DNA of 64,000 bases from Eledone cirrhosa (lineage: Eukaryota): NCBI GenBank assembly GCA_964016885.1, contig OZ024747.1, forward strand, positions 11,656,001 to 11,720,000. Direction: 5' to 3'. The stretch's first letter is position 1. Each line of letters begins with the position of its first letter. A program made the translations under genes and the position numbers. Shown here one piece after another: positions 8,255-12,054 of this stretch. The notes below the pieces were generated by a model. That model worked only from the letters and a program-made list of their open reading frames with translations, was not told where the DNA came from and did not search any database.

Positions 8255-9885
8255 TTGGAATAAATGCTCTGAAATAGCGATATATATGTGAATATAGACA
8301 TAGAATATTCGAAAATATTCTGTATGTTTATAATAAACATTTTGAAGACCTAATCGCTATAGAATAGAATACGTCACGTATTACAATTAGATTCTCGATA
8401 AAAGCAAGGGAAGTAAGTCTACGCGTTTCATTCTCGTTAGAAATCGTCAGGACTACATATCCAGTGCTTTCATCGAGAATGACACAGCTAGAGACTTATA
8501 GAATACTTAGCTGTGTACAGGAACTGGTTTGAAAGAGCGGTTGCCGGTCCGGCAGAAATTAGAAATTGGAATAAATGCTCTGAAATAGCGATATATATGT
8601 GAATATAGACATAGAATATTCGAAAATATTCTGTATGTTTATAATAAACATTTTGAAGACCTAATCGCTATAGAATAGAATACGTCACGTATTACAATTA
8701 GATTCTCGATAAAAGCAAGGGAAGTAAGTCTACGCGTTTCATTCTCGTTAGAAATCGTCAGGACTACATATCCAGTGCTTTCATCGAGAATGACACAGCT
8801 AGAGACTTATAGAATACTTAGCTGTGTACAGGAACTGGTTTGAAAGAGCGGTTGCCGGTCCGGCAGAAATTAGAATTGGAATAAATGCTCTGAAATAGCG
8901 ATATATATGTGAATATAGACATAGAATATTCGAAAATATTCTGTATGTTTATAATAAACATTTTGAAGACCTAATCGCTATAGAATAGAATACGTCACGT
9001 ATTACAATTAGATTCTCGATAAAAGCAAGGGAAGTAAGTCTACGCGTTTCATTCTCGTTAGAAATCGTCAGGACTACATATCCAGTGCTTTCATCGAGAA
9101 TGACACAGCTAGAGACTTATAGAATACTTAGCTGTGTACAGGAACTGGTTTGAAAGAGCGGTTGCCGGTCCGGCAGAAATTAGAAATTGGAATAAATGCT
9201 CTGAAATAGCGATATATATGTGAATATAGACATAGAATATTCGAAAATATTCTGTATGTTTATAATAAACATTTTGAAGACCTAATCGCTATAGAATAGA
9301 ATACGTCACGTATTACAATTAGATTCTCGATAAAAGCAAGGGAAGTAAGTCTACGCGTTTCATTCTCGTTAGAAATCGTCAGGACTACATATCCAGTGCT
9401 TTCATCGAGAATGACACAGCTAGAGACTTATAGAATACTTAGCTGTGTACAGGAACTGGTTTGAAAGAGCGGTTGCCGGTCCGGCAGAAATTAGAAATTG
9501 GAATAAATGCTCTGAAATAGCGATATATATGTGAATATAGACATAGAATATTCGAAAATATTCTGTATGTTTATAATAAACATTTTGAAGACCTAATCGC
9601 TATAGAATAGAATACGTCACGTATTACAATTAGATTCTCGATAAAAGCAAGGGAAGTAAGTCTACGCGTTTCATTCTCGTTAGAAATCGTCAGGACTACA
9701 TATCCAGTGCTTTCATCGAGAATGACACAGCTAGAGACTTATAGAATACTTAGCTGTGTACAGGAACTGGTTTGAAAGAGCGGTTGCCGGTCCGGCAGAA
9801 ATTAGAAATTGGAATAAATGCTCTGAAATAGCGATATATATGTGAATATAGACATAGAATATTCGAAAATATTCTGTATGTTTAT
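8255..9885 (-). mobile_element. 311-bp hammerhead-containing tandem array (retrozyme-like), left block, ~5.2 units, ribozyme sense on minus strand
   Basis: Unit starts at 8255, 8566, 8876, 9187, 9498 and 9809; first HHR at 8413-8456 (minus). Confidence 0.9.
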
Positions 9886-12054
9886 TATCGCTATTTCAGA
9901 GCATTTATTCCAATTTCTAATTTCTGCCGGACCGGCAACCGCTCTTTCAAACCAGTTCCTGTACACAGCTAAGTATTCTATAAGTCTCTAGCTGTGTCAT
10001 TCTCGATGAAAGCACTGGATATGTAGTCCTGACGATTTCTAACGAGAATGAAACGCGTAGACTTACTTCCCTTGCTTTTATCGAGAATCTAATTGTAATA
10101 CGTGACGTATTCTATTCTATAGCGATTAGGTCTTCAAAATGTTTATTATAAACATACAGAATATTTTCGAATATTCTATGTCTATATTCACATATATATC
10201 GCTATTTCAGAGCATTTATTCCAATTTCTAATTTCTGCCGGACCGGCAACCGCTCTTTCAAACCAGTTCCTGTACACAGCTAAGTATTCTATAAGTCTCT
10301 AGCTGTGTCATTCTCGATGAAAGCACTGGATATGTAGTCCTGACGATTTCTAACGAGAATGAAACGCGTAGACTTACTTCCCTTGCTTTTATCGAGAATC
10401 TAATTGTAATACGTGACGGATTCTATTCTATAGCGATTAGGTCTTCAAAATGTTTATTATAAACATACAGAATATTTTCGAATATTCTATGTCTATATTC
10501 ACATATATATCGCTATTTCAGAGCATTTATTCCAATTTCTAATTTCTGCCGGACCGGCAACCGCTCTTTCAAACCAGTTCCTGTACACAGCTAAGTATTC
10601 TATAAGTCTCTAGCTGTGTCATTCTCGATGAAAGCACTGGATATGTAGTCCTGACGATTTCTAACGAGAATGAAACGCGTAGACTTACTTCCCTTGCTTT
10701 TATCGAGAATCTAATTGTAATACGTGACGTATTCTATTCTATAGCGATTAGGTCTTCAAAATGTTTATTATAAACATACAGAATATTTTCGAATATTCTA
10801 TGTCTATATTCACATATATATCGCTATTTCAGAGCATTTATTCCAATTTCTAATTTCTGCCGGACCGGCAACCGCTCTTTCAAACCAGTTCCTGTACACA
10901 GCTAAGTATTCTATAAGTCTCTAGCTGTGTCATTCTCGATGAAAGCACTGGATATGTAGTCCTGACGATTTCTAACGAGAATGAAACGCGTAGACTTACT
11001 TCCCTTGCTTTTATCGAGAATCTAATTGTAATACGTGACGTATTCTATTCTATAGCGATTAGGTCTTCAAAATGTTTATTATAAACATACAGAATATTTT
11101 CGAATATTCTATGTCTATATTCACATATATATCGCTATTTCAGAGCATTTATTCCAATTTCTAATTTCTGCCGGACCGGCAACCGCTCTTTCAAACCAGT
11201 TCCTGTACACAGCTAAGTATTCTATAAGTCTCTAGCTGTGTCATTCTCGATGAAAGCACTGGATATGTAGTCCTGACGATTTCTAACGAGAATGAAACGC
11301 GTAGACTTACTTCCCTTGCTTTTATCGAGAATCTAATTGTAATACGTGACGTATTCTATTCTATAGCGATTAGGTCTTCAAAATGTTTATTATAAACATA
11401 CAGAATATTTTCGAATATTCTATGTCTATATTCACATATATATCGCTATTTCAGAGCATTTATTCCAATTTCTAATTTCTGCCGGACCGGCAACCGCTCT
11501 TTCAAACCAGTTCCTGTACACAGCTAAGTATTCTATAAGTCTCTAGCTGTGTCATTCTCGATGAAAGCACTGGATATGTAGTCCTGACGATTTCTAACGA
11601 GAATGAAACGCGTAGACTTACTTCCCTTGCTTTTATCGAGAATCTAATTGTAATACGTGACGTATTCTATTCTATAGCGATTAGGTCTTCAAAATGTTTA
11701 TTATAAACATACAGAATATTTTCGAATATTCTATGTCTATATTCACATATATATCGCTATTTCAGAGCATTTATTCCAATTTCTAATTTCTGCCGGACCG
11801 GCAACCGCTCTTTCAAACCAGTTCCTGTACACAGCTAAGTATTCTATAAGTCTCTAGCTGTGTCATTCTCGATGAAAGCACTGGATATGTAGTCCTGACG
11901 ATTTCTAACGAGAATGAAACGCGTAGACTTACTTCCCTTGCTTTTATCGAGAATCTAATTGTAATACGTGACGTATTCTATTCTATAGCGATTAGGTCTT
12001 CAAAATGTTTATTATAAACATACAGAATATTTTCGAATATTCTATGTCTATATT
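9886..12054 (+). mobile_element. 311-bp hammerhead-containing tandem array (retrozyme-like), right block, ~7 units, ribozyme sense on plus strand
   Basis: Reverse complement of the left block; HHRs start at 10023, 10334, 10645, 10956, 11267, 11578 and 11889. Confidence 0.9.
10023..10066 (+). ncRNA. Minimal type I hammerhead ribozyme (representative of 12 copies in the array)
   Basis: GTAGTC-CTGACGA-TTTCT-AACG-AGAAT-GAAA-CGCG-TA-GACTTAC; intact core, palindromic CGCG stem III, predicted cleavage after A10059 (GUA). Confidence 0.9.

What the first reader, a model, noticed from the sequence alone, without database searches (positions are those of the whole stretch)
9809..9915. Array flips orientation at 9885/9886, making a ~1.6-kb-arm palindrome with both 3' ends anchored in (TA)n
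Seen: the left block is ribozyme-sense on minus and the right block on plus. The arms (8255-9836 vs 9886-~11467) are separated by only 49 nt. The outer ends fall at different unit positions (..TTATTCCAA|TATA at 8255 and ..TCTATATT|TATA at 12054), neither at the ribozyme cleavage site, and both merge into (TA)n. Inference: both ends of a break in a (TA)n tract primed independent rolling-circle cDNA synthesis (about 5 and 7 turns) on a circular template, or one cDNA folded back. Permuted ends and near-identity fit a circular template better than unequal crossing-over. Transcription across it would give long dsRNA, and the DNA could extrude a cruciform.
Basis: partly seen in the sequence, partly recalled or inferred. 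Interest (0 to 1): 0.8.

Follow-up and report, generated by a model that had tools for sequence, protein, structure and literature searches.

The report
Palindromic retrozyme insertions with Penelope signature
A 311-base repeat carrying a hammerhead-ribozyme motif sits here as two back-to-back arrays, and most copies of its family in this animal genome have the same mirror-image layout with fixed outer ends, likely because a Penelope-type retrotransposon enzyme copies one RNA, probably a circle, many times over onto both ends of a cut in the DNA.

Summary
The inversion is as described, and it is the family's normal form. The 311-nt unit has a type I hammerhead motif and at least 16,444 copies. 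Two-armed, head-to-head loci: 55 of the first 60 tail-defined loci and 14 of the first 18 end-unbiased clusters. Outer ends are fixed, not permuted: in 65 of 65 two-armed loci one arm ends at unit position 29-31 and the other mostly 26-40 nt earlier, both in TA-rich DNA. This matches the published Penelope-like element (PLE) signature: an inverted 5'-truncated copy, a tail on one side, and two adjacent reverse-transcription start sites. A young RT + GIY-YIG PLE in the same genome shows the same layout. Both arms share one haplotype in 53 of 56 loci, with 29 haplotypes among 65 loci. Inner ends ignore the cleavage site and join by microhomology. Best reading: one PLE complex primes both target strands and rolls round one circular RNA (inferred; an uncleaved linear multimer is the main rival). 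Not shown: the helper PLE, the RNA circle, reads across this junction. A known element class with new insertion-level evidence for its proposed mechanism.

The parts
8116..8255 (.). Left (TA)n target tract; its last two bases (AT) also fit the element
8254..9885 (-). Tail arm: 5.25 copies of the 311-nt unit, 3' end at p29, 5' end at p263, five hammerhead motifs
8254..8290 (-). The 37-nt tail (p304 to p29) that this arm's end has beyond the other arm's end; inferred to lie between the two reverse-transcription start sites
   Evidence: meaning inferred from PMC11167929
9656..9699 (-). Innermost type I hammerhead motif of the left arm (p138-p181)
9837..9885 (-). 49-nt unpaired spacer of the palindrome (p263-p311 of the left arm)
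9885..9886 (.). Head-to-head inversion junction, blunt, unique in the assembly
9886..12054 (+). No-tail arm: 6.97 copies, 5' end at p1, 3' end at p303 beside the unit's own short TA tract, seven hammerhead motifs
10023..10066 (+). First type I hammerhead motif of the right arm; predicted cleavage at 10059/10060; repeats every 311 nt
12055..12098 (.). Right (TA)n target tract

Best explanation
This is one insertion of a young hammerhead-bearing tandem repeat (non-LTR retrozyme) whose two head-to-head arms were likely made in a single event by a Penelope-like RT-endonuclease complex that likely cut both strands of a (TA)n tract and likely copied one RNA, probably a 311-nt circle, onto both DNA ends. 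Steps: (1) Arrays are transcribed, self-cleave at p174/175 and are ligated to circles (inferred from published retrozymes). (2) One complex binds the RNA, and its two active sites start at two fixed sites about 35 nt apart, p29-31 and p303-p3; the second start may be helped by pairing of the target (TA)n with the unit's own UA tract (fixed ends shown, priming inferred). (3) Both cDNAs run several turns through the ligation site and stop at scattered positions (end positions shown, rolling inferred). (4) The two cDNA ends are joined by short microhomology or a few inserted bases (shown) and filled in. (5) Some long arms later grow by DNA-level duplication (shown for L059 and L083/84).
For: Layout. 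13 of 14 loci from the DNA search, 55 of the first 60 tail sites on C1 (4 single-armed, 1 ending in an assembly gap) and 14 of the first 18 end-unbiased clusters (3 single-armed, 1 gap) are two-armed, always minus then plus. Asymmetry. 65 of 65 two-armed loci with both flanks visible have one tail end and one no-tail end. No-tail ends fall at p300-p306 or p3 in 62 of 64. The tail end lies at the homologous base in two related families about 76-82% alike. PLE match. Published PLE insertions have an inverted 5'-truncated copy, a 30-40-bp tail on one end and (TA)n targets. An Anolis PLE protein cuts and extends both strands and starts at two adjacent internal sites that bound the tail. In this genome a 938-aa RT + GIY-YIG ORF belongs to a family 94-99% alike over the ORF-bearing stretches; 2 of its 5 fetched copies show a tail end and an inverted no-tail end in (TA)n, tail 66 nt. 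Short target duplications (8-14 nt, read by eye from the printed flanks) are visible at L043, L173, L174 and L178. Single template. 29 fixed haplotypes among 65 loci of 3 or more units; arms agree in 53 of 56 loci against about 9% expected from the pooled frequencies; private variants are fixed in every unit of both arms, for example a 2-nt deletion in 22 of 22 units at L059. Read-through. 3 of 140 inner ends lie within p172-178 (3.2 expected), and 765 crossings of the cleavage site show 3 variants. Sporadic substitutions are shared between loci at chance level, 4 against 3.5. Joining. Microhomology of 2 nt or more in 29 of 45 insert-free junctions against 17.6% expected; 19 of 64 have 1-16-nt inserts. 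One family junction seen in public contigs of one sample occurs at 4 loci of the assembly, each with a different haplotype.
Against: No PLE with a pLTR homologous to the unit was found in 44 GIY-YIG stretches out of 10,597 candidates, so the helper is unidentified. No RNA data were available and self-cleavage was not tested; Rfam gives no hammerhead match. The Anolis work found uncleaved RNA the main substrate in vitro. At L099 both arms change haplotype after the same two outermost units, which fits a linear mixed concatemer at least as well as a coordinated switch between circles; at L070 the arms differ at their outer ends. Agreement of arms could also come from one haplotype dominating a cell's RNA pool. 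Haplotype frequencies include 14 loci picked for likeness to the window unit. Inner ends are not fully uniform on the circle (KS p=0.009). The window's own junction has no read support here.
Confidence: 0.66

Rival explanations
1. Same PLE two-strand priming, but the template is an uncleaved linear multimer transcribed from an existing array, not a monomer circle.
For: Uncleaved RNA was the dominant substrate for the Anolis PLE, and ribozyme mutants still inserted. Absence of inner ends at p175 fits uncleaved RNA as well as a circle. L099 has two units of one haplotype at both outer ends.
Against: Variants private to one sampled locus are fixed in all units of both arms, which needs a monomer-to-multimer step somewhere in the lineage; partly fixed variants are few (20 cases, mostly 2 copies). 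Sporadic variants are not shared between sampled loci, although with 74 of more than 1,200 loci parent-daughter pairs would be rare. The common polymorphisms keep the ribozyme core and helices intact, as expected if cleavage matters for spread.
Confidence: 0.2
2. One cDNA folds back and copies itself (the self-priming model proposed for PLE head-to-head repeats), and the endonuclease then trims the second end at a fixed site.
For: Proposed in PMC3846280. 8 of 64 junctions have inner ends within 10 nt of each other (about 4 expected). Indels are mirrored about the junction at L032 and L036.
Against: Offsets of inner ends are uniform overall (KS p=0.78-0.83). The no-tail arm is longer by more than a unit in 20 of 63 loci and the tail arm in 30 of 63. 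Equal-length arms are not clearly enriched (11 of 63 against 7.0, p=0.08). The two mirrored indels lie at a short repeat and a homopolymer. The window's two variants are not mirrored. It may account for a small minority of loci.
Confidence: 0.07
3. A satellite array amplified by unequal exchange, later inverted in part by a DNA rearrangement.
For: Long arms do show DNA-level duplication (7-unit repeat at L059; recurring variants in the 45-unit arm of L083/84).
Against: It cannot give a fixed polarity, fixed tail and no-tail ends in (TA)n, short target duplications around the whole two-armed unit, or dispersal to more than 1,200 sites.
Confidence: 0.03
4. Assembly artefact from fold-back or chimeric long reads at this locus.
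For: No listed public contig spans this junction; raw reads of the assembly were not available.
Against: Flanks are not mirrored and the arms are unequal. Ends are stereotyped across dozens of loci. A family junction is present both in public contigs and in the assembly.
Confidence: 0.04

Closest known systems
Animal non-LTR retrozymes (Cervera and de la Pena 2020, PMC7229834; review PMC7761336; Li, Clavereau and Pollet 2026, 10.64898/2026.07.22.740005)
   Same: Non-coding tandem unit of 150-450 bp, low GC, one type I hammerhead per unit, dispersed multimers. These papers propose circRNA templates giving multimeric cDNA and PLEs as helpers.
   Different: In the parts read they describe head-to-tail arrays and give no insertion-level signature; the 2020 review says the repeats show no motif that reveals the helper. 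Here most insertions are two-armed palindromes with fixed tail and no-tail ends and one haplotype across both arms.
Endonuclease-bearing Penelope-like elements (Arkhipova 2013, PMC3846280; Craig 2021, 10.1101/2021.04.23.441226; Frangieh 2024, PMC11167929)
   Same: Inverted 5'-truncated copy head-to-head, 30-40-bp tail on one end, AT-rich or (TA)n targets, short target duplications, internal start of reverse transcription at two adjacent sites, both strands cut and extended, type I hammerhead with a very short helix III.
   Different: No ORF; both arms are multimers of a whole 311-nt unit (104 of 130 arms have 2 or more units); no homology found to the pLTR of any PLE fetched.
Non-autonomous Chlamys PLEs such as MRC1 in Chlamydomonas (Craig 2021)
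   Same: [quoted passage not shown]
   Different: They resemble their helpers at the 3' end; that clade mostly lacks hammerheads; head-to-head multimer palindromes are not described in the passages read.
LINE-1 twin priming (recalled; only a search listing seen)
   Same: Both target strands prime cDNA, giving a 5' inversion joined by microhomology.
   Different: In L1 the second primer lands at a variable internal site and the two parts copy different stretches of a linear RNA. Here both starts are fixed and both arms copy the same sequence many times.

Membership tests
Type I hammerhead ribozyme | Conserved core CUGANGA...GAAA...UH with helices I (open), II and III | tested here: met
   Core at p144-150, GAAA at p165-168, UA at p173-174; helix I 6 bp with one bulge, helix II 4 bp over a U-U pair, helix III 2 bp with a palindromic loop
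Type I hammerhead ribozyme | Variation spares the core and keeps the helices | tested here: met
   Fixed variants fall at N7 (C/T/A), loop II, the U-U pair (to A-U) and helix I (bulge loss, G-U, and a paired change at p141 with p176-177); none at an invariant core base. Haplotypes are related, so this is not independent covariation.
Type I hammerhead ribozyme | Match to an Rfam hammerhead model | tested here: not met
   No match at gathering score or at E up to 10
Type I hammerhead ribozyme | Self-cleavage | not testable with these tools
   The minimum-energy fold of the circle does not form the hammerhead; needs an assay
Non-LTR retrozyme | Tandem non-coding unit of 150-450 bp with one type I hammerhead per unit, GC under 50%, dispersed | tested here: met
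   311-nt unit, GC about 36%; at least 16,444 units and 1,220 tail ends genome-wide
Non-LTR retrozyme | Expressed as a monomeric circular RNA | not testable with these tools
   No RNA run was listed
PLE-type insertion (works like) | Inverted 5'-truncated copy joined head-to-head | tested here: met
   55 of 60 and 14 of 18 loci
PLE-type insertion (works like) | 30-40-bp tail on one end only | tested here: met
   One tail end and one no-tail end in 65 of 65; tail 37 nt in the window, 35-37 nt in the commonest class
PLE-type insertion (works like) | AT-rich or (TA)n target with a short duplication | tested here: met
   TA-rich flanks at the 65 loci; 8-14-nt duplications readable at L043, L173, L174, L178; not readable inside pure (TA)n, the window included
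Autonomous Penelope-like element | ORF with PLE RT and GIY-YIG endonuclease | tested here: not met
   The insertion consists only of 311-nt repeats; such ORFs lie elsewhere in the genome
pLTR derivative of a specific PLE family | Sequence homology to a helper's pLTR | tested here: inconclusive
   None in 44 stretches examined of 10,597 GIY-YIG candidates; the hits were other small hammerhead repeats

The most novel reading that the evidence does not exclude
A single Penelope-type RT dimer carries out double rolling-circle reverse transcription on one small circular RNA, extending both ends of a (TA)n break at once. This has filled the genome with roughly a thousand near-perfect palindromes, most with arms of 0.5 kb or more, and the same two-primer step explains the long-unexplained inverted-plus-tail structure of Penelope-like elements in general.
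Probability: 0.55. Interest if true: 0.8.

Novelty: new variant of a known kind. Interest (0 to 1): 0.62.

Why it matters
Two questions are open in the papers read: how animal retrozymes are mobilised (rolling-circle copying by a PLE is proposed, not shown) and how PLEs make their tandem and inverted insertions. This family is young, non-coding and has more than 1,200 insertions, so it records the reaction in large numbers. One tail and one no-tail arm per insertion, clonal arms and read-through of the cleavage site favour coupled two-strand priming over fold-back and favour a monomer template. The 311-nt RNA is a ready substrate for an in vitro PLE assay. The genome also carries about 5 Mb of this repeat, largely as long palindromes whose arms can pair around a loop of at most about 155 nt (median shorter arm 890 nt). 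These could yield hairpin RNA or fragile sites (untested).

Tried and rejected
(1) A 39-nt target duplication at the window locus (8217-8255 = 12055-12093) is rejected as chance: 3 of 65 loci show such a match of 15 nt or more, against 4% of 400 mismatched flank pairs. (2) Rfam searches found no hammerhead. (3) The helper PLE was not found: 30 GIY-YIG loci and 14 long-frame stretches show no pLTR homology to the unit. (4) Sequencing runs: no RNA holder listed. Raw-read runs X23 and X24 laid no reads, so they are no test. No strand-changing joint was listed when contigs were laid on the sense unit. (5) The empty allele could not be looked for: one assembly only, and both flanks are repeats. (6) Mirrored variants did not separate the models cleanly: 2 cases mirrored about the junction, 1 in register with the outer ends, 1 ambiguous, 2 in neither register, plus L070. 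(7) Rows left out: L081 (same locus as part of L082) in all counts; L036 and L089 (an end outside the stretch), L044 (duplicated junction) and L060 (272-nt insert) in some junction or length counts, as coded. (8) Eight literature searches listed no paper describing palindromic retrozyme insertions. The library lacks most subscription journals, and I read no supplements, where such structures may be drawn. (9) Look-ups of earlier scan notes by sequence, by place and by seven words gave nothing.

Full report
Observation. The window holds a 311-nt tandem repeat in two blocks, 8254-9885 and 9886-12054. With U = 9886-10196 numbered p1-p311, the left block is the reverse complement (5.25 units, 5' end p263 at the junction, 3' end p29 at the left flank) and the right block is sense (6.97 units, p1 to p303). 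The junction is blunt, the arms pair around a 49-nt spacer, and both outer ends run into (TA)n. Only two variants occur in the array and neither is mirrored.

The unit. It carries a type I hammerhead motif: core at p144-150, helix II of 4 bp over a U-U pair, GAAA, a 2-bp helix III with a palindromic loop, predicted cleavage after p174, and a 6-bp helix I with one bulge. Rfam does not detect it. Among family haplotypes the fixed differences near the ribozyme fall at N7, loop II, the base of helix II and helix I, and they keep the pairing. This fits the published definition of an animal non-LTR retrozyme (PMC7229834: passages and Discussion read; PMC7761336: passages; bioRxiv 10.64898/2026.07.22.740005: parts 1-3 of 5). 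Cleavage and circle formation were not testable.

The family. The window lies in a 3.0-Gb, microsatellite-rich genome, inferred to be an animal. An exact 26-mer of the unit occurs 16,444 times, and the p29/p31 end followed by TA occurs 1,220 times. Three samples were examined. Of 14 loci from the DNA search (window included), 13 are two-armed. Of the first 60 tail sites on C1, 55 are two-armed, 4 single-armed and 1 ends in an assembly gap. Of the first 18 clusters of the internal 26-mer, a sample blind to ends, 14 are two-armed, 3 single-armed and 1 is the gap case. The samples overlap in part. Polarity within a locus is always minus then plus, so the sense strands point outward. The inversion is therefore the family's standard insertion form.

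Outer ends. In all 65 two-armed loci with both flanks visible, one arm ends at p29-31 and the other earlier: p305 in 31, p3 in 17, p300-303 or p306 in 14, and p289 or p293 in 2 of 64. Several p300-301 calls are shortened by a local variant, and p306-p3 cannot be told apart because the unit's own TA tract merges with the target. Most of these loci were picked by their tail end, but the 13 search-derived loci with that end visible also end at p29-32. The five further two-armed loci of the blind sample end at p27-34, one of them a diverged copy called at p20. No pair of tail sites among the 100 listed forms a palindrome within 20 kb (read from the list). Two related families, about 76-82% alike, end at the homologous base. 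The ends are thus fixed and asymmetric, not permuted. Short direct duplications of 8-14 nt are readable at L043, L173, L174 and L178. The 39-nt match at the window is at chance level.

Match to Penelope-like elements. Craig et al. describe PLE insertions with an inverted 5'-truncated copy, a 30-40-bp tail usually on one end, and (TA)n targets, and call the mechanism undefined (passages). Frangieh et al. showed that an Anolis PLE protein, predicted to be a dimer, cuts and extends both strands and starts reverse transcription at two adjacent internal sites that bound the tail (main text). This genome has 10,597 GIY-YIG candidates. One young family has a 938-aa RT + GIY-YIG frame, a minimal hammerhead variant with the same short helix III and a 66-nt tail; 2 of its 5 fetched copies show an inverted no-tail arm in (TA)n. 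It shares no sequence with U, and no helper was identified in 44 stretches. The finding therefore works like a PLE insertion; it is not itself a PLE.

One template. Among 65 loci of three or more units there are 29 fixed haplotypes. The two arms agree in 53 of 56 loci where both exceed one unit, against about 9% from pooled frequencies. One of the three exceptions (L054) concerns the ambiguous alignment at p176-177. Sporadic differences number 107 in 240,024 nt. Variants private to one sampled locus are present in every unit of both arms (L059, L076, L065, L086). This needs a monomer to be multiplied at some step. Inner ends are not enriched at the cleavage site (3 of 140 within p172-178, 3.2 expected), and 765 crossings of that site show 3 variants, so copying from cleaved linear RNA or repeated jumping between cleaved monomers is unlikely. 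A circle fits all of this. An uncleaved multimer fits part of it and has in vitro support. At L099 both arms carry the same two odd units at their outer ends: this shows that the two arms were made together, but fits a linear mixed template at least as well as a circle. Long arms show later DNA-level duplication, so unit number is not always the number of turns.

Junctions. Of 64 junctions, 38 show microhomology, 7 are blunt and 19 have inserts of 1-16 nt; 29 of 45 insert-free junctions have 2 nt or more, against 17.6% expected. Offsets between the two inner ends are uniform (KS p=0.78-0.83), with a small excess within 10 nt (8 of 64). Arm lengths are uncorrelated (rho 0.16, p=0.22), and either arm can be longer by more than a unit (20 and 30 of 63). 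This disfavours the self-priming model of PMC3846280 (passages) for most loci.

Artefact check. Unmirrored flanks, unequal arms and stereotyped ends argue against fold-back reads. Public contigs of one sample (runs X1, X2; library not on record) hold the unit at very high depth, show the unit running into TA at or near the tail end, and contain one inversion junction at depth 27-40. That junction occurs at four loci of the assembly with four haplotypes. The window's own junction is unique in the assembly and was not among the listed contigs; its haplotype is shared by only 2 other sampled loci and is rare in that sample.

Novelty and verdict. Retrozymes, the PLE insertion signature and the idea that PLEs mobilise retrozymes by rolling circle are all in print. 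Eight searches listed no report that retrozyme insertions are two-armed palindromes with a tail/no-tail asymmetry and clonal arms; supplements and subscription papers were not seen. An unchecked note from this scan describes a tRNA-like tandem repeat with PLE-type ends in another genome; it is a lead, not support. Verdict: real, and a new variant of a known kind. My estimates: the locus is real about 0.95, PLE machinery about 0.87, two-strand priming by one complex about 0.8, circular template about 0.7. Interest 0.62.

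Noticed in passing
window:12105-12530: A second, shorter palindrome right beside the array (about 294 nt, 90% self-complementary), with about 130 extra bases on the right before the next (TA)n. It looks like another two-armed insertion with a one-sided extension. My hammerhead pattern found nothing in it.
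   Followed up: partly
L105:2425-2870, L134:300-705, L148-L167: Two older related hammerhead repeat families (about 76-82% alike to the unit over the aligned stretches) with the same tail end; many copies are short palindromes.
   Followed up: partly
L142:7995-8210, L146:4620-4830, L139:680-825: A third small hammerhead-bearing family inserted in (TA)n as short palindromes with an extension of about 70 nt on one side.
   Followed up: no
L134:4809-7622 (-), L135, L139, L141, L142: A young PLE family with an open 938-aa RT + GIY-YIG frame, copies 94-99% alike over the ORF-bearing stretches, a U3/A8 hammerhead variant and a 66-nt tail; a candidate protein for in vitro work.
   Followed up: partly
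L060:4399-4670: 272 nt of unrelated sequence captured at an inversion junction, as if a foreign template bridged the two cDNA ends.
   Followed up: no
L099: Both arms switch haplotype after the same two outermost units; the most informative single locus for circle versus linear template.
   Followed up: partly
L083/L084 (G000:C1:97461500-97476483): A 45-unit arm with recurring variants, a sign of later array expansion.
   Followed up: partly
public runs X4 and X18 laid on window:9886-10196: Runs labelled as two other organisms hold all or most of the unit as one unbranched, low-depth contig with four substitutions, and runs under 16 other organism labels share 38-48% of the words. Cross-contamination by a high-copy repeat is the simplest reading; unexplained.
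   Followed up: partly
window:36259-37030: A young 144-bp tandem repeat (5.4 copies, 98% matches) with no hammerhead match by my pattern.
   Followed up: no
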